64,000 nucleotides of DNA from Escherichia phage saus132: sequence record NC_047884.1; one strand, written 5' to 3'. A program made the position numbers and the translations under genes. Positions 1,587 through 60,205 of the stretch are shown in pieces; within the stretch, counting starts at the first letter, position 1, and every line of letters starts with the position of its first letter. The notes below the pieces were generated by a model that saw nothing but the letters and a program-made list of their open reading frames with translations, was not told the DNA's origin and made no database searches.

Positions 1587-3251
1587 TTATGCAAAGAATT
1601 TTCCATTCTTAAAGTCAATCAAAGTACGCTGCCCGTTTGCGTATGTAATTAAATGGGTTTGCGTCCAGCTACTAGCGCCAACGTTGTAACCCATATCGAG
1701 ACTACCAGCAACGCCAGCGGTATAAACGCCGCCATAAATACTAGCCGTGTGAGTGTGGCCAGTATTGAGGCGTCCCAACTTTTTGAACTGTTTTGGATTG
1801 CCCCGACTGCCATTAATGCCGTTGTGACCATGAACACCGCATTCAATTCCTGCAATCTTGAAAGATTGGTCAGTGGTTAGGAAAATGGCGTTAAATTCGC
1901 AACCTGCAACGTTTCTAAGCGCGTAATCCAATACGTTAAAGGTATCATCTTGTTTTGCAATAGCTGCATAAATCGCGGCGTTTAGGCTGTGATACAGTTC
2001 GGCGTTTGCGGGGTCGTCTTTAATGTTAGCGTTGCGATCATCAAGCCAACGGGATAACGCCAAATCATGATTGGATTCCACGATGATTGTTTGAGAAAAA
2101 TCGCGCTCCATTGACTCCAACACGCGACCGGTATCAATGAGATCGTCAATAACTTTGTCACGTCCGGCGGCGTACTGTTTAGCTAGGAATACACCAGAGG
2201 CACGATTATGATGATTGCGGGATGTAAAATCGTGTACGTCATGGATAAACTGATATTTCGGTTTAAGAATATCAAGCAAGCTATTTTCGCCCACCCATGA
2301 TGCAACGGCGCAATCATCATCTAATTTTTCGGCGTGAATATCGCCATATTGCAAGCCTAAAACATGATCAGATGTTTTGAAACATCCGGTGGGCACAGCG
2401 CAAACGTTCAAATCGTAGAACATCCCGCTTTCGTCCATAGTTTCAAGCTGGCGAACAAAAAATTCTCCGTCGTCGTCAAATTCTACCAGTAAAGCACCGA
2501 AATTATGCAGCGCCTCGGCCTTTTGTCCTGCCTTTTGCTGAATATAGTTTTTAAGTGTAGCCGTTCCGGTGGAGTACATACGGCGCACTACTTCACCTTT
2601 TAACGCTGGCACACTTTCAGCGGTAATTTTTGCGTGACCAATTGCCAGACCTTCGATGTTTAAAGCCGTTGCAGTTTCTGCGAATCCAGAAAGCGGATAA
2701 TCTGCCGTTGGTAATACATTAATTTCAGCCATGAAAGCAAAACGGCGATTATTCAAAAACACGTTTTTCTCACAAATATATTTATCAAATGCGGGATCAT
2801 ATTTGATTTTTTCGCCGCCTTCCCCGTTCTGAAATCCGTTTTTGTTGTAAATGAATTTGCTAACAAGTAATTCAGCGCCGTAATAACTAGCGTACTGCTC
2901 AAGCGCTTTCAAAAAGTTTTTATGCGGGAAAGTATTGTTTTGAATCGACGTTAGAATAAAACGGCGACCGGATTTAACTTCCCACTGTTCAACGGTGCTA
3001 GAAACAATCCCCGCCGCTTCTGGGCGATCATCGTTTTTAATGGCTTTTACTGCCTTCGCTGCCTTCGGTTTCGCTGGCTTATTTGCTTCCAACCAGTCAC
3101 AAATTGCCGTTGAATGTTTCGGCGTATCATAAACAGCTTTTGAAATATCGTCGCAAACTTCCAATTTAGTAGCGCGTAAACGCTTACCGTAGAAGTTAAA
3201 ATCTGCGGCCATTTTCAAAATTTGAGCTTGTTTTTCTGCGGAAATATTCAT
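1587..3251 (-). CDS. A1: A1-like pre-early protein with metallophosphatase-type motifs (putative nuclease/phosphoesterase)
   Basis: 554-aa ORF; GDIHAE, VHGHNG and GHTHTAS motifs resemble calcineurin-like phosphoesterase signatures; size and position fit T5 A1. Confidence 0.7.
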   Translation of the reverse strand: MNISAEKQAQILKMAADFNFYGKRLRATKLEVCDDISKAVYDTPKHSTAICDWLEANKPAKPKAAKAVKAIKNDDRPEAAGIVSSTVEQWEVKSGRRFILTSIQNNTFPHKNFLKALEQYASYYGAELLVSKFIYNKNGFQNGEGGEKIKYDPAFDKYICEKNVFLNNRRFAFMAEINVLPTADYPLSGFAETATALNIEGLAIGHAKITAESVPALKGEVVRRMYSTGTATLKNYIQQKAGQKAEALHNFGALLVEFDDDGEFFVRQLETMDESGMFYDLNVCAVPTGCFKTSDHVLGLQYGDIHAEKLDDDCAVASWVGENSLLDILKPKYQFIHDVHDFTSRNHHNRASGVFLAKQYAAGRDKVIDDLIDTGRVLESMERDFSQTIIVESNHDLALSRWLDDRNANIKDDPANAELYHSLNAAIYAAIAKQDDTFNVLDYALRNVAGCEFNAIFLTTDQSFKIAGIECGVHGHNGINGSRGNPKQFKKLGRLNTGHTHTASIYGGVYTAGVAGSLDMGYNVGASSWTQTHLITYANGQRTLIDFKNGKFFA

Positions 3252-3645: not shown

Positions 3646-4062
3646 TTATTCACCTGCGGCCTGTTTTACTTCCTCCGCTACGCCTAACAATTGCGCTACG
3701 GCTTCCAGCGTTTCCAGTTTTGCACTTTCCAGACTTGCCAGATCATCAGCGTCTTTGATAACGCCAGCATCAATGGCATGTTTAGCCATAACGCGCACAT
3801 AGTGAGCTTTACGGACACTAGACCCGCCGCCAACTTTACGCGGTTTATCACTTTTCTGGTACGCTTTTGCGCTTGTCAGTTTAGAACGTACAGAAACAGG
3901 GCTTGCAGCGCCAACGGCGGCGGCAATTTCTTTCAGGCCGTCACTGTTAGCAAATTCAATTCCGCTTTTAGCGACCATTTCAGAATACATAGAAACAGCC
4001 TTTTCGGTGTTTTCTTCGTTCCAAGAGAATTTTGCGGTTTTTTCGGTTTTAACGTTAGACAT
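3646..4062 (-). CDS. A2: A2-like pre-early protein (putative DNA-binding)
   Basis: 138-aa ORF immediately upstream of A1 in transcription order, as in T5; Ala-rich. Confidence 0.5.
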   Translation of the reverse strand: MSNVKTEKTAKFSWNEENTEKAVSMYSEMVAKSGIEFANSDGLKEIAAAVGAASPVSVRSKLTSAKAYQKSDKPRKVGGGSSVRKAHYVRVMAKHAIDAGVIKDADDLASLESAKLETLEAVAQLLGVAEEVKQAAGE

Positions 4063-17072: not shown

Positions 17073-17587
17073 TCCAACATCCAGCTAGTTTTATCATGAG
17101 AAGTATACTTACCACTCATAATATCTTCTAATCGTACAGGCGACTTTGCATACTCAACACAAACGTTAATGTAACGTGGATCTCCCATTAATTCAAAGTG
17201 AGTATGCCCATGCAAATTCTTTTTACCCCTTAACTCTCCTGGGTGCACTGGGGCATGAGAAAGCCAGAAGTTCTTATATTTAACTAAAGACTGCACATTA
17301 TCTACTACACCTACTAAGTCTGTAAAAGATAAGCCTTCTCGTTCCAAATCGTGGTTTCCCAGAACTAGAGTAGTCCTAACATTGCTAAATAGTTTTTCAA
17401 ACTTCTCCAGACCCTTTCTAGATACAAATGCGTCCCCTAAAATGAAAAATACAGTACGTTTATCCTTCATAGACGTAATAGTATCCATGATAAATTCGTC
17501 GTGCTCTTCCATACTAGAGAACATAGTTCGAAACTTAGGGATATTAACATGCCCTAAGTGTAGGTCGCTCCAAAAATAAACTTTCAT
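17069..17587 (-). CDS. metallophosphoesterase
   Basis: 172 aa; WSDLHLGH, GDAF, GNHD and GHTH motifs. Confidence 0.65.
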   Translation of the reverse strand: MKVYFWSDLHLGHVNIPKFRTMFSSMEEHDEFIMDTITSMKDKRTVFFILGDAFVSRKGLEKFEKLFSNVRTTLVLGNHDLEREGLSFTDLVGVVDNVQSLVKYKNFWLSHAPVHPGELRGKKNLHGHTHFELMGDPRYINVCVEYAKSPVRLEDIMSGKYTSHDKTSWMLE

Positions 17588-17955
17588 TACAGAACTTCCT
17601 CCGCATATTTATTCCAACCTTGACAATAGCTGCTAATACCACGAAGTTTGAATATTTCATCATGAATCTCGTGATGTTCTTTTGCTTCTTGATATCCTTT
17701 GTCAAGTTCTTCCTGTCGTGCTTGCTCAAAATCAACACGATTCTCTAGCATTTTCCAGACTTCTTCATACTCTGGCCAGTCATGCTCTACCACAACGGTT
17801 TTGAGATCCTTTTTTCCACGTTGTGCTCGACTATACCAGAGCTTAGTTAGTATATGTTCCAAAGTGGTAAAGTTACTCTGAGTGATATGCCCTAATTCTA
17901 GGGCTTTCTCAATATCAGACAACTTTATTACTACATAACGTTCTTCACGTTCCAT
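17587..17955 (-). CDS. hypothetical protein
   Basis: 122-aa ORF. Confidence 0.5.
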   Translation of the reverse strand: MEREERYVVIKLSDIEKALELGHITQSNFTTLEHILTKLWYSRAQRGKKDLKTVVVEHDWPEYEEVWKMLENRVDFEQARQEELDKGYQEAKEHHEIHDEIFKLRGISSYCQGWNKYAEEVL

Positions 17956-53750: not shown

Positions 53751-56084
53751 TTATAATTGACAACCACCAGATGCGCATCCAGCAGCAGCTTCCTCTCCTG
53801 CACCTCCACCATTTTCAGTGTTGAAGTTTGCATAATAAAAGGTTTTCCAACCGTACTTAACAGCAGTCATAAAGTCACGAACTACTACTGGGCCGGGAAT
53901 GATTTCATTCTCGAACTTGGTGTAGTCATAGTACATATTCGTACTGATAGACTGGCTGAAGAATTTCTGCATGGTTGCTACCCATTTGATCCACTCGATA
54001 CGATCTACATCATAAGCCAGTTTATAGCTCATTAATGTATCCCAATCAGTTGCACCTGGAGCAATTGCAATTACTTTATTCACTGCACTACCCTTGATAG
54101 ATACGATCTTACGGGGCGGTTCGATAGAGTTAGTAACACCTAGCAGTACAGAGGAACTTTCACCTGGCATCTGAGCAGTCAGAACAGAGTTGCGCATACC
54201 ATATTTCAGAATATCTGCACGCAGAGATTCCCAATCCATTTCTAGACCTACAGTTACCAGTTCATCAACAGTTTTCTTGTACGTGTCGATTACCAGAGTT
54301 CCTTGCGAAGGCTTAGTACGATTAAACCAGTCACATGCACCTTGTTCTTTAGCCAGACGTACAGAGGCTTTATGTAGGAAGTAGGACAGCTTTTCAGCTT
54401 CACGGTGAATCCAGTTACGTGCTTCAACACCTTCGTAAGCCAAACCTTCTGCTGCCATTGCACCTGCTGCGTTCATCAGACCAATACCAACGTTACGACG
54501 TTTCTTAGCCGTGTATTCCATAGTTGGGAATGGATAATCCTGAATCTCGATGATTGTATCAACGAATTTCAGAAGGATGTAGCAAGTTTTCTCCCATTCA
54601 GCCAGAGATTCCATGCGGCCTAGTACAACACCACCTAAGTTACACAGAGATACTTCACCAATATCTTCTGGACGCATATCGTCTAACTGATCTTGGGTTT
54701 TATACAGTTCCGTAACGTGATGGAATGGACGGGTTGGCTGAGTAATTTCAACACAAAGGTTGGTCATACGAATCGGGTCAAGGAAGTTACCATGACGGTT
54801 AGATTCACCAATGTGATGAGCATACATACGCCCTGTTTCCATACGGATACGTAACCAAGTATCTAGGATTTCTTTTGCAGAGATTCTAGGAGCTGCTGGA
54901 ATTGTTTTTCCTTCGTGGTCGATCTTTGTAAGAGATGCCACACGTTTCTCCGCTGCCACGTAGATTTCTTCAAACTTAGCCTCATCTTCACCATAAAACG
55001 CTTCATGAACTTCTGGTGCGTAGAAGTAGGACATTAGCGTAATATCTTCGTTTTTCAGGTAACGTTTTAACAGAAGGTTGTTAAAGCTCAGAGAATAATC
55101 CATCTTATCGATTTTATTCTCGTCTGTAGCACGTTGCTGCTTAACCTGCATCAACTGAATGATTTCAGGATCGAAGTATGGATAAGACACAGTAGCAGAA
55201 CCGCCACGGGTTTGCTGAGTGTTAGCTTTTACTGAACGGTCAATGTGTCGATAATATGGCAGTTTTCCGGAATGCGGGAATGCCCCATTTCGCACCGGAT
55301 CAGCAATTGATCGGCTTTCAAGATGATACCCGATTCCCGCTCTGGCTGCGACCATTTTGAAGACGATATGCTCGGCTGTGTCGATTGAATCCAGCGTGTC
55401 AGTGGAATCCACGAGGCAACAACTAGCAAATCCACGGTCACTAGAGCGCAGGCCAACCAGTGGCGGCGTAGGAACGTTGATTTTGTGGAGCGACATTGCA
55501 TTGTAGAGGTCGATTGCATCTAGAATTGTCCAGTTAGGTTGAGATAACATCGCCATTGCCATACCCATGTAGGCAAACTGCGGGGTTTCATAAATTTCAC
55601 CAGTTGCAATATTACGACGAGAATACTTGTCGAAGAACTGTTTCAGTCCACCACTGGTGAATAAACGATCGCGATCATGATCAATAACTTGGTTCAGAGC
55701 GTCAAACTGATCATCGCTAATCCATGCACTCATGTCTTCCCAAGCGCCAACACGAACCATATGATCGTGGAAGAAACGCAGAGAAGGTGGTTCGAAGGAA
55801 TCATATAGGCGTTTACGCATCTGCGCAAGACGTAATTCCTTTGCTGGCACATCGTATGCTGGGTTATCTTTGATAAGACCTTCAGCGGCTTTAATTAACG
55901 CATCCATTAGGGTATCGGAATCTACAACACCTTTAGGTAGAGTTTTTTGAGCAGACATAGTGATGGCTGACCAGCTCACATCAACTGTTTTGCAGCCATA
56001 TACTGCCCAACCATTGAGTTTTTCAGGAGCAAAGTCTTCTACAGTACCGTCACGTTTAATTACTTTTGTAATTCTAAAGTCCAT
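53751..56084 (-). CDS. nrdA: ribonucleotide reductase large subunit
   Basis: ATP-cone VIKRDG near N-terminus and class I RNR catalytic core; start set at ATG after AAGGAA RBS (track start 56144). Confidence 0.8.
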   Translation of the reverse strand: MDFRITKVIKRDGTVEDFAPEKLNGWAVYGCKTVDVSWSAITMSAQKTLPKGVVDSDTLMDALIKAAEGLIKDNPAYDVPAKELRLAQMRKRLYDSFEPPSLRFFHDHMVRVGAWEDMSAWISDDQFDALNQVIDHDRDRLFTSGGLKQFFDKYSRRNIATGEIYETPQFAYMGMAMAMLSQPNWTILDAIDLYNAMSLHKINVPTPPLVGLRSSDRGFASCCLVDSTDTLDSIDTAEHIVFKMVAARAGIGYHLESRSIADPVRNGAFPHSGKLPYYRHIDRSVKANTQQTRGGSATVSYPYFDPEIIQLMQVKQQRATDENKIDKMDYSLSFNNLLLKRYLKNEDITLMSYFYAPEVHEAFYGEDEAKFEEIYVAAEKRVASLTKIDHEGKTIPAAPRISAKEILDTWLRIRMETGRMYAHHIGESNRHGNFLDPIRMTNLCVEITQPTRPFHHVTELYKTQDQLDDMRPEDIGEVSLCNLGGVVLGRMESLAEWEKTCYILLKFVDTIIEIQDYPFPTMEYTAKKRRNVGIGLMNAAGAMAAEGLAYEGVEARNWIHREAEKLSYFLHKASVRLAKEQGACDWFNRTKPSQGTLVIDTYKKTVDELVTVGLEMDWESLRADILKYGMRNSVLTAQMPGESSSVLLGVTNSIEPPRKIVSIKGSAVNKVIAIAPGATDWDTLMSYKLAYDVDRIEWIKWVATMQKFFSQSISTNMYYDYTKFENEIIPGPVVVRDFMTAVKYGWKTFYYANFNTENGGGAGEEAAAGCASGGCQL

Positions 56085-56207
56085 TGCGGTTTCCTTTTTA
56101 TAGTTCTCAGGATTTAGATAGTATTCTACTTTGTTTTGAGTCATTATGCAAGTACAATTTTTCAGATAAAAAGAGCCCGGATATTTTCATACCCAGGCTC
56201 GTCTGTC

Positions 56208-56451: not shown

Positions 56452-57204
56452 TTACACCTTCCCCATATCCTTAAAGATATCGTAGAATGCTTTAGACTCT
56501 GGTGAGCGAACGTTGTCGATCAGTTCGATCATAGAGAAAGGAGAGTTTTCGTACTTCTCATAGACTTCCATAAGAAGTGCTAGACCTGAATCACCCTTGA
56601 TGTCTTTCTGAGCTATATCTCCACAGATAATTAGACGACAATCTTGTCCGACACGAGTCAAGAGACAGATCATTGCTTCAACGGAGATATTCTGAGCTTC
56701 ATCGACAATTACATAGGAGTTGTTGAAAGTTCGGCCACGGGCATGTTCGATAGCCAGGAATTTGATTTTCTGACGTTCGACATATCCTTTGTAGGCGTGA
56801 TCACCGATTGCCCATTTCATGCCATCGGCTATTGGTTCCAACCAAGGCTCTAGCTTTTCTGCTAGATCACCTGGGAGCATACCAAGAGATTTACCTAGAG
56901 GTTCGTTCGGACGCACGAGGATCACTTGCTCAATATCTGAGTGAATGTCTACGAGTTCCTGAGCTGCAAGAACGGACGGAATAAAGGTTTTACCAGTACC
57001 TGGTTCACCGATACCCACAGTCACTGTGTTGTTCTTGATCATATTGATATATGATTTTTGCTCACGGTTTTTACCAACTAGGGATTTAGCAACTGGATTG
57101 GCGTAATCACCAGAGAAATCTGCTTGAATTACGTTACTCTCATACTTGTTGCCACGCTTTCTTGAACCATTGCGGTTCTCTCTTTTTTGACGTGCTTTTC
57201 CCAT
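56452..57204 (-). CDS. phoH: PhoH-like ATPase
   Basis: Walker A GEPGTGKTF; start set at ATG after AGGAG RBS (track start is GTG at 57213). Confidence 0.75.
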   Translation of the reverse strand: MGKARQKRENRNGSRKRGNKYESNVIQADFSGDYANPVAKSLVGKNREQKSYINMIKNNTVTVGIGEPGTGKTFIPSVLAAQELVDIHSDIEQVILVRPNEPLGKSLGMLPGDLAEKLEPWLEPIADGMKWAIGDHAYKGYVERQKIKFLAIEHARGRTFNNSYVIVDEAQNISVEAMICLLTRVGQDCRLIICGDIAQKDIKGDSGLALLMEVYEKYENSPFSMIELIDNVRSPESKAFYDIFKDMGKV

Positions 57205-57277: not shown

Positions 57278-57306
57278 ATTATACCAATATATGCGGGAGA
57301 AAGCAA
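57278..57306 (-). promoter_or_regulatory. T5-type early promoter for phoH
   Basis: TATAAT 57278-57283, TTGCTT 57301-57306, 17-bp spacer. Confidence 0.5.
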
Positions 57307-57498
57307 CTACAATTTTAAATAAGCCTATGATATTGCATTTAAATAAAAAATTTGCTTGCTTTTATTGGGAGATGTATGGTACTAGATAATCATTTTATAT
57401 CGCGTACACGGGCGCGTGATTATACTATTTTTAATAGAGGTTGGCAAATAAAATTTTTTGACTCAGATCATGTTACAGAACTTTATAGTAAAATATTG

Positions 57499-57527
57499 TT
57501 GACATCCGCCTTCGAATGAGTTATAAT
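57499..57527 (+). promoter_or_regulatory. consensus sigma70 promoter for nrdD (TTGACA-17-TATAAT)
   Basis: TTGACA 57499-57504, 17-bp spacer, TATAAT 57522-57527; GAAGGAGGG RBS before ATG 57557. Confidence 0.65.
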
Positions 57528-57556
57528 AGTAGTCTTAGTTAGAGAAGGAGGGTATA

Positions 57557-59431
57557 ATGAATCGCAATGAAGAACTAAAATATAAAGGAATGCAGTCCTT
57601 AATTCGAAACTGCAAAGAAATTATCGAAGGTTCAGCAGATGAAGAGCTGCTGTTTAATAATGCCAATAAGCCCTCAGAACGTTTCCCTACACAAAGGGAT
57701 ATGCTTGCAGGGGAATTGAGTAAATATCTGATTCTGGAAGAAATGCCAATCCAGATTCGAAATGCTCACATGATTGGTGATATTCACTTCCATGATGCTG
57801 ATTACGCTGCGTTAGGTATGACTAACTGTTGCCTGGTTGCTTTGGAAGATATGTTGAAGAATGGTATGAAGGTTGGTAATGCTGAAATCAGTACGCCAAA
57901 CTCCATTACTACTGCGGCTGCTATTACAGCTCAGATTATCACTCAGGTTAGCTCACACCAATATGGTGGTACTTCTGTAGACCGATTAGATGAAGTATTG
58001 GCTCCTTATGTTCGTAAGTCTTACGATAAGAATCATGCGTTTGCAAAACGTTGGACTAAGGATGAAGCCAAAGCATCTGTAATGGCTACGGAAATGACTG
58101 AGAAAGAAGTTTACGATGCCTGTCAAGGTCTAGAGTATGAAATCAATACGATGTTCAACTCTAATGGTCAGAGTCCATTTATTACCTTTGGTTTTGGTCT
58201 AGGAACTTCCTGGGAAGCACGTCTTGTACAGAAAGCAATCTTAGAAGTGCGTATGGATGGTTTGGGTATCAATAAACGTACAGCTATCTTCCCTAAACTG
58301 GTATTTGTTTTGCGTGATGGCGTAAATATGAAACCTGGTGATGTTAACTATGATATCAAGAAGTTAGCTATGAAATGTACTGCTGAACGTATGTATCCTG
58401 ACTACATCAGTTATGATAAGGTTGTAGAAGTTACGGGAGACTACAAAGTCTCTATGGGCTGTCGTTCATTCCTGGCTGCTGCGGAAGATGGTGAAACTTC
58501 TGGTCGTAACAACTTAGGCGTTGTTTCCGTAAACCTTCCTCGAATCGCTATCGAAGCGGAAGGAAATATTGATCTATTCTTCGATCTGCTTGAGCTGCGT
58601 GTGGATACCGCGTTAAAAGCATTGGAGTGGAGGGTTGATCGCTTAAAATACATCCAAGCTAAAGCTGCGCCCATCCTCTATATGTCAGGAGCCTTTGGAT
58701 TACGTCTGGGGCCAGATGAATATGTGTTTGATCATTTCTACAAGCGTGCTTCTGTATCTCTAGGATATATTGGTTGCCACGAAATGTTGCAGCTCATGTT
58801 TGGTAAAGATGTAGATACAATGTCTGAGTCTTGTATCAAGTTCGTTCAACGTGTGCTACAATACATGCGTGATCGTGCTGATCAGAAGAAGGAAGAGACT
58901 CAATTAGGGTATAGTCTGTATGCTACACCATCTGAATCTCTATGTGATCGCTTCTGTCGTCTAGATCGTGAGTATTTCCCAGAGCATGAAGATATTCTGG
59001 CTAAAGGATATTACACTAACTCTCATCACCTTGATGTGGAGCGTAAGGTTGCTCCGAACGTGAAGTTCGATTATGAGTCTAACTTTACCCCAATTGCTTC
59101 TGGTGGGTGCATTTCCTATGTGGAATTGCCTGATATGAAACGATTCCCAGATGCGCTGGAGTGGGTTATTAACTATGCTGCAAGTAAAGTTCATTACTTC
59201 GGTATTAATACTCCAGTAGACTCTTGTGGGGAATGTGGATTCTTGGGTGAAACTATAGCTTCTGAGGATGGTTTCAAATGCCCAATTTGTGGCAACCATG
59301 ATCCTGAGACTCTTGAGGTAACTCGTCGAGTTTGCGGATATCTTGGAAATCCAGGTGCTCGTCCATTTAACCCAGGTAAACAACATGAGGTTATGGGTCG
59401 AGTGAAACATCAGGACATTCGCGCTAAATAA
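57557..59431 (+). CDS. nrdD: anaerobic ribonucleoside-triphosphate reductase (class III RNR)
   Basis: 624 aa; C-terminal CPICG zinc site and TRRVCGYLG glycyl-radical motif. Confidence 0.8.
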   Translation: MNRNEELKYKGMQSLIRNCKEIIEGSADEELLFNNANKPSERFPTQRDMLAGELSKYLILEEMPIQIRNAHMIGDIHFHDADYAALGMTNCCLVALEDMLKNGMKVGNAEISTPNSITTAAAITAQIITQVSSHQYGGTSVDRLDEVLAPYVRKSYDKNHAFAKRWTKDEAKASVMATEMTEKEVYDACQGLEYEINTMFNSNGQSPFITFGFGLGTSWEARLVQKAILEVRMDGLGINKRTAIFPKLVFVLRDGVNMKPGDVNYDIKKLAMKCTAERMYPDYISYDKVVEVTGDYKVSMGCRSFLAAAEDGETSGRNNLGVVSVNLPRIAIEAEGNIDLFFDLLELRVDTALKALEWRVDRLKYIQAKAAPILYMSGAFGLRLGPDEYVFDHFYKRASVSLGYIGCHEMLQLMFGKDVDTMSESCIKFVQRVLQYMRDRADQKKEETQLGYSLYATPSESLCDRFCRLDREYFPEHEDILAKGYYTNSHHLDVERKVAPNVKFDYESNFTPIASGGCISYVELPDMKRFPDALEWVINYAASKVHYFGINTPVDSCGECGFLGETIASEDGFKCPICGNHDPETLEVTRRVCGYLGNPGARPFNPGKQHEVMGRVKHQDIRAK

Positions 59432-59518: not shown

Positions 59519-60205
59519 ATGGTACGAAGGAAGTTAGATAAAGACACTATCAATAAAGATTTAGAGCCTAGAAGAATTAAGCTAATAAGTGAGTATTCTG
59601 GAATCCTTAATAAAGGCACATTCATATGTAGTGTAGGTCATACATGGGAAGCTACTGTTAATAATGTAAGGAATAGCAAATCTGGCTGTCCAATATGCGC
59701 AGGTACTTTTAAACTTACTAAAGATTCGGTAAATGAAGGGTTACGTAGTAGGGGTATTACTCTTATTGGAGAGTATAAAAATAATGCTACTAAAACTCTT
59801 TTTGAATGTGAGCATGGGCATAGGTGGGAAGCCACAGTAGGCAATGTAAAGAATAAAAATTCTGGGTGTCCTGTGTGCGATACTGATTGGAATACCCCTG
59901 GTTTTATATACATTATGTGTAGTAGTATGGGAACTAAAATAGGAATTAGTATCTCTCCTGAAAGACGGTGGAAAGAGATAGTTAAAAGCTCCAATATACT
60001 AGATTTATATATTTTTGGTGTCTATTCAATAGATTCTGGTACCAAATCTAAAAGTAGGTCTATCGAGAAACAGACTCATGAATATTTTTCAGAATATAGA
60101 TTAAAGTATACAGGATTTGCTGGATGTACTGAATTCTTTGATATATCTCCCATAGCCGTAGAAAAGCACTTAATTAATAATGGGTGTATAAAGGTAGAAA
60201 AATAA
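59519..60205 (+). CDS. T5orf172-domain protein with two zinc-ribbon repeats
   Basis: two repeats GH(T/R)WEATV.NV.N..SGCP.C, then GFIYIMCSSMGTKIGISISPERRWKEI core. Confidence 0.55.
   Translation: MVRRKLDKDTINKDLEPRRIKLISEYSGILNKGTFICSVGHTWEATVNNVRNSKSGCPICAGTFKLTKDSVNEGLRSRGITLIGEYKNNATKTLFECEHGHRWEATVGNVKNKNSGCPVCDTDWNTPGFIYIMCSSMGTKIGISISPERRWKEIVKSSNILDLYIFGVYSIDSGTKSKSRSIEKQTHEYFSEYRLKYTGFAGCTEFFDISPIAVEKHLINNGCIKVEK

What the first reader, a model, noticed from the sequence alone, without database searches (positions are those of the whole stretch)
57458..57527. FNR-like half-site pair upstream of the nrdD promoter
TTGACTCAGATCAT (57458-57471) resembles the FNR consensus TTGAT-N4-ATCAA and lies about 40 bp upstream of the -35 of a perfect sigma70 promoter for the anaerobic RNR gene. 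It could confer oxygen-responsive expression.
Basis: inference. Interest (0 to 1): 0.35.

Follow-up and report, generated by a model that had tools for sequence, protein, structure and literature searches.

The report
Host oxygen-sensor site before phage nrdD
A T5-like phage carries, about 70 bp upstream of the start of its anaerobic ribonucleotide reductase gene, a binding site for the host's oxygen sensor FNR that is conserved across related phages, so the phage probably reads the host's oxygen status to tune this gene.

Summary
TTGACTCAGATCAT (57458-57471) lies 27 bp upstream of a 12/12 sigma-70 promoter (TTGACA 57499-57504, N17, TATAAT 57522-57527) that drives nrdD (57557-59431).

Within this window the match is no more frequent than chance. 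Related phages change the verdict:
- On the published E. coli FNR matrix the site scores 12.62, above the authors' threshold of 12.17.
- It is the only one of six such sites in the 122-kb genome that lies between genes.
- An FNR site sits at exactly this offset in eight distinct sequence contexts from E. coli, Salmonella, Yersinia and Klebsiella T5-like phages. Several are better matches (up to TTGATTAAGATCAA, 16.78).
- The half-sites are conserved about as well as the -35 and -10 hexamers (0.85-0.94 against 0.96). The flanks are not (0.32-0.54).

T5-like phages of Providencia, Proteus and Pectobacterium instead carry strong ArcA boxes (17.7-23.8 bits) centred at the same position. T5 itself has lost the FNR left half-site.

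My reading is a real FNR site in an upstream (class-I-like, about -69.5) position. It most likely boosts nrdD under anoxia. Binding and the direction of the effect are untested, and the core promoter is consensus, so basal expression should be high. I found no prior report.

The parts
57458..57471 (.). FNR-type palindrome TTGAC-TCAG-ATCAT. The predicted centre is about -69.5 from the nrdD transcription start.
   Evidence: It scores 12.62 on the Myers et al. FNR matrix, whose threshold is 12.17. It lies at a conserved offset (start 41 bp before the -35) in 8 distinct contexts.
57488..57498 (+). A/T-rich stretch just upstream of the -35 (AAAAT at 57490-57494 is invariant). It resembles a proximal UP-element subsite.
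   Evidence: These five columns are invariant across the 8 contexts, while the rest of the 27-bp linker has 0.54 pairwise identity. The UP-element reading is an inference.
57499..57504 (+). -35 hexamer TTGACA of the nrdD promoter
   Evidence: The consensus scan gives 12/12 with a 17-bp spacer. It corresponds to the nrdD promoter annotated in T5 record AY543070.
57522..57527 (+). -10 hexamer TATAAT. The start site is predicted at about 57534 and has not been mapped.
   Evidence: The start site is inferred from the usual distance of about 7 nt after the -10.
57557..59431 (+). nrdD, the large subunit of the anaerobic (class III) ribonucleotide reductase. A GGAGG ribosome-binding site lies at 57547-57551.
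   Evidence: Pfam NRDD E = 3e-172 and Gly_radical E = 9e-23. The source record annotates it the same way.
57419..57447 (-). Divergent leftward promoter TTGCCA-N17-TATAAT, pointing toward phoH and nrdA. The FNR site is centred about -52.5 from its predicted start.
   Evidence: 11/12 match. T5 annotates a leftward promoter at the same place. The distance from the FNR site to this -35 varies between lineages (6-28 bp, read).
56452..57204 (-). phoH-like gene, the first gene of the leftward unit, which continues to the aerobic RNR gene nrdA (53751-56144)
   Evidence: Pfam PhoH E = 2e-61; record annotation.

Best explanation
The palindrome is a genuine binding site for the host oxygen sensor FNR, kept by selection upstream of the early sigma-70 promoter of the phage's anaerobic ribonucleotide reductase gene. 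In an anoxic host, pre-existing [4Fe-4S] FNR dimers would bind it, centred about 69-70 bp upstream of the start site. That is a class-I-type upstream position like the -64.5 site that drives the host's own nrdDG. From there FNR would contact the RNA polymerase alpha C-terminal domain docked on the A/T-rich stretch next to the -35, raising nrdD transcription above an already high basal level. In air FNR is monomeric and the promoter runs at its basal rate.

What is shown: the sequence match, the intergenic location, and the positional and half-site conservation. What is inferred: FNR binding, the start site and therefore the helical phase, activation rather than repression, and the size of the effect.
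For: (1) The FNR matrix was recovered from 186 scored sites in Myers et al. 2013 Table S6 with a maximum residual of 0.007. It reproduces the published threshold (uniform P(>=12.17) = 2.15e-5 = exp(-10.75)). The window site scores 12.62.
(2) Of 6 sites scoring at least 12.17 in the 121,986-bp genome, only this one is intergenic. Of 35 promoter-like sites in the window, only this promoter pair has a hit above 12 upstream.
(3) The same offset (site start 41 bp before the -35) holds in other contexts:
- TTGACTCAGATCAA, 15.62
- TTGACTAAAATCAA, 14.83
- TTGATTAAGATCAA, 16.78
- TTGATTAAAGTCAA, 14.83
- TTGATAAAAATCAA, 15.49 (NR01, AZ21, VAH1)
- TTGACTAAAGTCAA, 13.58 (Yersinia phiR2-01)
- ATGATCCAGATCAA, 14.58 (Klebsiella phages whose NrdD is only 62% identical)
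(4) Mean pairwise identity is 0.85 for the half-sites (0.94 for the TTGA/TCAA cores) and 0.96 for the -35 and -10. It is 0.61 for the 4-bp spacer, 0.54 for the linker and 0.32 for the upstream flank. The substitutions fall at the positions the matrix tolerates (1, 5, 10, 14).
(5) The distance to the rightward -35 is fixed at 27 bp. The distance to the leftward -35 varies from 6 to 28 bp (read).
(6) Providencia, Proteus and Pectobacterium T5-like phages have ArcA boxes of 17.7-23.8 bits centred at the same point, 34.5 bp before the -35.
(7) The host nrdDG operon is FNR-activated from sites at -33.5 and -64.5, and the upstream site is necessary and sufficient (PMC10425943). Class I FNR positions are -61.5 and -71.5 (PMC6343905).
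(8) No nrdG homologue was found in the phage genome. The phage enzyme therefore probably needs host NrdG, which is itself made under FNR control (inference).
Against: - The core promoter is a perfect consensus with an A-tract, so it should be strong without any activator. A large FNR effect is not expected.
- The allele in this window (ATCAT half-site) is only just above threshold. Counted within this window alone, such matches occur at the chance rate.
- The start site is unmapped. At -69.5 +/- 1 the site is 1-2 bp off the canonical -71.5.
- Natural class I FNR promoters are rare, and in E. coli a site at -71.5 (yccA) is associated with repression (PMC3688515).
- T5 itself and the Shivani/2-3 group lack the site, so it is dispensable.
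- In Vibrio T5-like phages a perfect FNR palindrome overlaps the -35 position of an extended -10 promoter. That looks more like repression.
- The slot between the two divergent promoters is small, so the shared position of FNR and ArcA sites is partly forced.
Confidence: 0.6

Rival explanations
1. The site is a chance match with no function. An A/T-rich phage genome produces several FNR-like palindromes, and one happens to lie upstream of nrdD.
For: In-window counts are at chance: 63 against 62.7 for at most 2 mismatches, and 4 against 3.1 for PWM scores of at least 12.17. The probability of a hit of at least 12.62 somewhere in a 343-bp intergenic region of this composition is about 1.5%. The site is absent from T5 and the Shivani-type phages.
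Against: The offset is identical in eight diverged contexts. The half-sites are conserved as strongly as the -35 and -10 while the spacer and flanks drift. Better-matching alleles occur in relatives, and it is the only intergenic hit in the genome.
Confidence: 0.1
2. It is a real FNR site, but its main job is to repress or dampen transcription. Either it acts on the divergent leftward promoter (phoH and the aerobic RNR genes), where it is centred about -52.5 like the repressing -50.5 site of ndh, or it acts on nrdD itself by trapping the polymerase alpha C-terminal domain.
For: In E. coli FNR represses nrdAB and ndh (site at -50.5), and yccA with a site at -71.5 (PMC3688515). The site lies 10 bp from the leftward -35. 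In the Vibrio relatives the palindrome sits over the -35 region.
Against: The spacing to the leftward -35 varies from 6 to 28 bp between lineages, while the spacing to the nrdD -35 is constant. Repressing nrdD under the only condition in which NrdD works makes little physiological sense.
Confidence: 0.15
3. The palindrome is the operator of some other protein, such as CRP or a phage-encoded regulator, and only resembles an FNR box.
For: CRP and FNR recognise related palindromes. Phages do encode their own regulators. The motif in several alleles contains GATC.
Against: Every allele has TTGA (or ATGA), not the GTGA that CRP needs, and the half-sites are 4 bp apart, as FNR requires. GATC is lost in several alleles (AAATCAA, AAGTCAA) while the FNR half-sites stay. 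In other lineages the motif is replaced by an ArcA box, which points to a host anaerobic signal rather than a phage protein.
Confidence: 0.07
4. TTGACT is the -35 of an additional tandem promoter rather than half of a regulator site.
For: TTGACT matches TTGACA at 5 of 6 positions, and TATAGT lies downstream at 57484-57489. This is read directly from the sequence.
Against: The spacer would be 20 bp, outside the 16-18 bp range, and the scan reports no such promoter. The right half-site is conserved as well, which a -35 alone would not explain.
Confidence: 0.03

Closest known systems
E. coli and Salmonella nrdDG promoter (FNR sites at -33.5 and -64.5)
   Same: The same gene function is under the same host regulator. 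An upstream FNR site beyond -60 does the work in the host: site 2, TTGAGCTACATCAA, scores 15.68 on the same matrix and is necessary and sufficient.
   Different: The phage has a single site, at about -69.5. It has no second site at -33.5 and no NrdR boxes. Its core promoter is consensus rather than weak and activator-dependent. No sequence similarity beyond the motif was seen by eye, so capture of the host promoter is not indicated (not formally tested).
Synthetic and natural class I FNR/CRP promoters (FF-61.5, FF-71.5; CRP at malT -70.5)
   Same: A dimer bound one face upstream, with an A/T-rich stretch between it and the -35 where the alpha C-terminal domain can dock. The class I positions are confirmed in PMC6343905; the malT position is from memory.
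   Different: Class I promoters normally have poor core elements. This one is 12/12. The phase is uncertain by 1-2 bp because the start site is not mapped.
Host global-regulator sites in the promoters of phage auxiliary metabolic genes (for example PhoB boxes before cyanophage pstS/phoA, NtcA sites in cyanophages, LexA or Fur boxes in temperate phages); from general knowledge, not checked here
   Same: A phage gene that supplements host metabolism is wired to the host regulator that reports the relevant physiological state.
   Different: Here the signal is oxygen or redox, the phage is a virulent T5-like phage, and different lineages use two different host regulators (FNR or ArcA) at the same promoter position.
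ArcA-P boxes (two TGTTA repeats 11 bp apart; Park et al. 2013)
   Same: Relatives from Providencia, Proteus and Pectobacterium carry boxes of 17.7-23.8 bits. That is as strong as, or stronger than, the best E. coli chromosomal boxes (maximum 21.4 bits in Table S3).
   Different: The window itself has no ArcA box (best 10.1 bits). In E. coli ArcA is mostly a repressor that occludes promoters, and an upstream position at about -70 is unusual for it.

Membership tests
FNR binding site (FNR box) | Match to TTGAT-N4-ATCAA above the published matrix threshold (PatSer 12.17, ln p = -10.75) | tested here: met
   The score is 12.62 on the matrix recovered from Myers 2013 Table S6, and the matrix was validated. 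The conserved G of both half-sites and the 4-bp spacing are present. The outermost base of the right half-site is a mismatch (ATCAT).
FNR binding site (FNR box) | Located in a promoter region rather than inside a gene | tested here: met
   It is intergenic, 27 bp upstream of a 12/12 promoter. The other five genome hits are inside CDSs. The overlapping 55-aa ORF is not conserved.
FNR binding site (FNR box) | Conserved in orthologous promoters, with the half-sites constrained and the spacer free | tested here: met
   Eight distinct contexts share the same offset. Half-site identity is 0.85-0.94, against 0.61 for the spacer and 0.32-0.54 for the flanks. The site is absent from T5 and Shivani-type phages.
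FNR binding site (FNR box) | Bound by [4Fe-4S] FNR in vitro or in vivo | not testable with these tools
   This needs EMSA, footprinting, or ChIP in infected anaerobic cells.
FNR binding site (FNR box) | Expression of the downstream gene depends on FNR and oxygen | not testable with these tools
   No transcript data for T5-like phages under anoxia were found in the library.
Class I activator-dependent promoter | Activator centred near -61.5, -71.5, -82.5 or -92.5 | tested here: inconclusive
   The centre is 34.5 bp before the -35 start, which gives -69.5 +/- 1 with a predicted, unmapped start site. The class I positions are taken from PMC6343905.
Class I activator-dependent promoter | A weak core promoter that needs the activator | tested here: not met
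   TTGACA-N17-TATAAT is 12/12 and has an A-tract upstream. I therefore do not file it as activator-dependent. At most it is activator-modulated.
NrdR-regulated nrd promoter | A pair of NrdR boxes (acaCwAtATaTwGtgt; consensus quoted from memory) near the promoter | tested here: not met
   Only 2 matches with at most 3 mismatches occur in the window, against 1.75 expected, and neither is near nrdD.
ArcA box | An 18-bp box scoring at least 15 bits, the cut-off Park et al. used for genome searches | tested here: not met
   The best score in the window's nrdD upstream region is 10.1 bits. The criterion is met in relatives from Providencia, Proteus and Pectobacterium (17.7-23.8 bits) and marginally in T5 (16.4 bits).

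The most novel reading that the evidence does not exclude
T5-like phages as a group have wired the promoter of their anaerobic ribonucleotide reductase gene to the host's anaerobic regulators, and different lineages use different regulators at the same spot. E. coli, Salmonella, Yersinia and Klebsiella phages use FNR. Providencia, Proteus and Pectobacterium phages (and possibly T5 itself) use ArcA. In both cases the site is centred 34.5 bp before the -35. Vibrio phages carry FNR in a different arrangement. A virulent phage that shuts off host transcription would thus still read the host's oxygen and redox state through leftover host regulators. This fits with its apparent dependence on host NrdG.
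Probability: 0.5. Interest if true: 0.7.

Novelty: new member of a known kind. Interest (0 to 1): 0.55.

Why it matters
If true, this is a clear case of a strictly lytic phage using host global regulators to match an auxiliary metabolic gene to the host's physiological state. Two different regulators appear to have been swapped into the same promoter slot in different host ranges.

- It gives a simple, testable handle on how T5-like phages replicate in the anoxic gut. Many of these phages are candidates for therapy or biocontrol against Salmonella and E. coli.
- It explains why the feature escaped notice, because the model phage T5 has lost the site.
- It offers natural allelic series for studying upstream activation of a consensus promoter: ATCAT against ATCAA (209 and 74 database records), and FNR against ArcA.

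Tried and rejected
- Simple mismatch counting and PWM counts within the window are at chance, so they cannot settle the question alone.
- NrdR boxes: none near nrdD.
- Coding explanation: the 55-aa ORF 57352-57519, which some records annotate as hypothetical, is not open in other lineages.
- Tandem promoter using TTGACT: the spacer would be 20 bp, and the scan does not report it.
- CRP site: the half-sites are TTGA rather than GTGA, and the spacing is 4 bp rather than 6 bp.
- ArcA box in the window itself: the best score is 10.1 bits.
- Start-site data: no T5 transcript mapping was found.
- The primary paper on nrdDG and FNR (PMC180968) is not held. The site positions were taken from PMC10425943 instead.
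- Literature on FNR or ArcA in T5-like phages: nothing found.
- Phage nrdG: tblastn with a T4-like NrdG found nothing with E below 2, and there is no convincing CxxxCxxC ORF.
- Limits of the matrices: weights for bases never seen in the published FNR site list were set to -5, which does not affect scores above threshold. The ArcA matrix uses 115 of the 128 published boxes (r = 0.99 with the published scores).

Full report
**What the window is.** The window is identical in sequence and coordinates to the first 64 kb of T5-like phage chee130_1 (MF431736.1, Epseptimavirus). The finding lies in the 343-bp region between two divergent gene blocks. To the left are phoH (56452-57204) and the aerobic RNR gene nrdA (53751-56144). 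To the right is nrdD (57557-59431), confirmed by Pfam NRDD at E = 3e-172 plus Gly_radical.

**The observation.** TTGACTCAGATCAT is at 57458-57471. TTGACA is at 57499-57504 and TATAAT at 57522-57527, with a 17-bp spacer, a 12/12 match. The T5 record AY543070 annotates a rightward nrdD promoter and two leftward promoters in the homologous region. One leftward promoter is TTGCCA-N17-TATAAT at 57447..57419. The FNR-like site therefore sits between two back-to-back promoters.

**Is it more than chance?** Counted within this window alone, it is not. Matches with at most 2 mismatches number 63 against 62.7 expected. To score it properly I recovered the PatSer matrix of Myers et al. 2013 by least squares from the 186 scored sites in their Table S6.
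- The maximum residual is 0.007. The recovered matrix gives P(>=12.17) = 2.15e-5 = exp(-10.75), which is exactly the published threshold.
- The window site scores 12.62, above that threshold. For comparison, the E. coli nrdD site scores 15.68.
- The window holds 4 sites of at least 12.17 against 3.1 expected from shuffles.
- The whole 121,986-bp genome holds 6. The other five are all inside annotated CDSs.
- Among 35 promoter-like sites in the window, only this promoter pair has a hit above 12 upstream. The next best is 10.77.

**Comparative evidence.** This is what changes the verdict. I anchored relatives on the -35 of the promoter that serves nrdD. An FNR site starts exactly 41 bp upstream (a 27-bp gap) in all of the following:

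| Phage or locus | Site | Score |
|---|---|---|
| Window allele | TTGACTCAGATCAT | 12.62 |
| L016 | TTGACTCAGATCAA | 15.62 |
| L025 | TTGACTAAAATCAA | 14.83 |
| L026 | TTGATTAAGATCAA | 16.78 |
| L035 | TTGATTAAAGTCAA | 14.83 |
| NR01, AZ21, VAH1 | TTGATAAAAATCAA | 15.49 |
| Yersinia phiR2-01 | TTGACTAAAGTCAA | 13.58 |
| Klebsiella phages (NrdD 62% identical) | ATGATCCAGATCAA | 14.58 |

In several of these phages a homing-endonuclease-type gene (T5orf172/MUG113, or HNH in phiR2-01) has been inserted between the promoter and nrdD, and in several the promoter's own spacer sequence is different. The site and its spacing persist all the same.

Across the eight distinct contexts, mean pairwise identity is as follows:
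- half-sites 0.85 (TTGA/TCAA cores 0.94)
- -35 and -10 hexamers 0.96
- 4-bp spacer 0.61
- 27-bp linker 0.54
- upstream flank 0.32

The substitutions fall at positions 1, 5, 10 and 14, which the matrix tolerates. GATC is not the conserved feature. The distance to the leftward -35 varies from 6 to 28 bp while the distance to the nrdD -35 never changes. This ties the site to the nrdD promoter.

Among database phages, 209 records carry the window's exact 41-bp allele and 74 carry the stronger ATCAA allele. T5 itself has TTAGCACAGATCAA (left half-site lost, score 7.2) plus an 18-bp insertion. Shivani and phage 2-3, which have a different inserted gene and promoter, have no site.

**A second regulator at the same place.** T5-like phages of Providencia (PR1, PSTCR5), Proteus (Stubb, PM135) and Pectobacterium (My1, DU_PP_V) have no FNR site. 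They share the motif TTGTTAA-N5-TGT(T/A)A. I built an ArcA-box matrix from 115 of the 128 boxes in Park et al. 2013 Table S3 (r = 0.99 with the published scores). On it these motifs score 23.8, 20.5, 19.2 and 17.7 bits, whereas the best E. coli box in that table scores 21.4.
- They start 43-44 bp before the -35. Their centre is therefore 34.5 bp before the -35, the same as for the FNR sites.
- The two TGTTA repeats are 0.95 identical across these phages, against 0.42-0.52 around them.
- Boxes of at least 15 bits are rare: 2 in the whole chee130_1 genome on both strands, and 1-2 per 6.8-kb locus.
- T5 has a 16.4-bit box on the other strand inside its 18-bp insertion. That is only suggestive, since the chance of one in such a region is about 1%.

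**Vibrio relatives.** Four Vibrio T5-like phages carry perfect palindromes with four different spacers (TTGATCTGGATCAA, TTGATATAGATCAA, TTGATCTATATCAA, TTGATCTGAATCAA; scores 16.9-17.6). Here the palindrome ends 9 bp before an extended -10 (TGnTATAAT), which centres it near -28.5. FNR control of nrdD therefore seems general in the family. This arrangement is different, though, and would more naturally repress unless the true start site lies elsewhere.

**Mechanism.** With the start site predicted at about 57534, the site is centred at -69.5 +/- 1.
- FNR activates from -41.5 (class II) or from -61.5 and -71.5 (class I) (PMC6343905).
- The host nrdDG operon is driven by a site at -64.5, which is necessary and sufficient, helped by one at -33.5 (PMC10425943).
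- Host nrdDG is FNR-regulated in Enterobacteriaceae, Yersinia and Vibrionaceae (PMC1805755).
- An invariant AAAAT lies just upstream of the -35 at 57490-57494. This is where the polymerase alpha C-terminal domain could dock between FNR and sigma (inference).

I therefore propose class-I-type stimulation under anoxia. Because the core promoter is consensus, FNR is likely a modulator and not a switch.

No NrdG homologue was found in the phage genome. The phage enzyme probably relies on host NrdG, which is only made in cells that were already anaerobic. That gives a rationale for coupling nrdD to the same signal (inference).

**Caveats.**
- Natural class I FNR promoters are rare, and a -71.5 site (yccA) and a -50.5 site (ndh) are associated with repression (PMC3688515).
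- FNR represses the host nrdAB, and here the site is about -52.5 from the leftward promoter. A secondary repressive role on the aerobic RNR block cannot be excluded.
- The space between the two promoters is small, so part of the positional coincidence between FNR and ArcA sites is forced.
- Nothing here shows binding or regulation.

**Alternatives excluded.** There are no NrdR boxes. The overlapping 55-aa ORF is not conserved. TTGACT cannot pair with a -10 at a legal spacing. The half-sites are of FNR type, not CRP type.

**Novelty.** Full-text searches combining T5-like phages or Demerecviridae with FNR, ArcA and nrdD found no report. Host-regulator sites in phage metabolic-gene promoters are a known kind of feature, so this is a new member of that kind. 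The added twist is that two host anaerobic regulators occupy the same promoter position in different lineages.

Noticed in passing
L029 2391-2408, L032 2392-2409, L041 2412-2429, L042 2392-2409, L028 2387-2404, L031 2370-2387: T5-like phages of Providencia, Proteus and Pectobacterium carry very strong ArcA boxes (17.7-23.8 bits) upstream of the nrdD promoter. They are centred at the same distance from the -35 as the FNR sites of the E. coli and Salmonella phages.
   Followed up: partly
L027 (T5) 2383-2400, minus strand; L002 about 3856-3873: T5 itself has lost the FNR left half-site (TTAGC). Its lineage-specific 18-bp insertion contains a 16.4-bit ArcA box in the opposite orientation, about 17 bp further upstream than in the other lineages.
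   Followed up: partly
L046 1088-1101; L071-L073 1119-1132; L074 1130-1143: Vibrio T5-like phages have perfect FNR palindromes with four different spacers, ending 9 bp before an extended -10 (TGnTATAAT). The centre is therefore near -28.5, over the -35 region. This is a different and possibly repressive arrangement.
   Followed up: partly
window 59519-60205; L026 1825-2493; L012 1491-2354; L045 828-1499; L043 993-1493: Homing-endonuclease-type genes cluster around nrdD (T5orf172/MUG113 with treble-clef zinc fingers, or HNH in phiR2-01). One lies downstream in this window. In several relatives one is inserted between the promoter and nrdD. The Shivani/2-3 type of insertion comes without an FNR site.
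   Followed up: partly
whole genome MF431736.1 (window + L076 + L077): No homologue of the NrdD-activating enzyme NrdG was found: tblastn with a T4-like NrdG gives nothing below E = 2, and there is no convincing CxxxCxxC ORF. The phage NrdD probably depends on the host activase.
   Followed up: partly
window 57399-57420: A GC-rich hairpin (ATCGCGTACACGGGCGCGTGAT) overlaps the predicted start of the leftward transcript. A similar GC-rich palindrome sits at the equivalent place in the Providencia, Proteus, Pectobacterium and Klebsiella relatives. Its function is unknown; it could be a 5' stem-loop or an operator.
   Followed up: no
window 57278-57286, minus strand: An extended -10 promoter (TGGTATAAT) lies about 70 nt upstream of phoH. 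It matches the second leftward promoter annotated in T5 and is missed by the -35/-10 scan.
   Followed up: no
L039 2380-2393: A higher-GC metagenomic viral contig encodes an NrdD 57% identical to this one. It has a perfect TTGATTTTAATCAA about 65-80 bp before the likely start codon, so FNR/Anr-type control of viral nrdD may extend beyond T5-like phages.
   Followed up: no
window 17722-17735: The best FNR matrix hit in the genome (TTGCTCAAAATCAA, 14.02) lies inside a hypothetical-protein CDS (17587-17955, minus strand). It is probably a chance match.
   Followed up: partly
phage database hits H27 (MG065642.1) and H32 (OP045498.1): Records labelled Campylobacter phage A148 and Klebsiella phage 150049 are 99% identical to this Salmonella/E. 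coli T5-like sequence. The host labels look doubtful.
   Followed up: no
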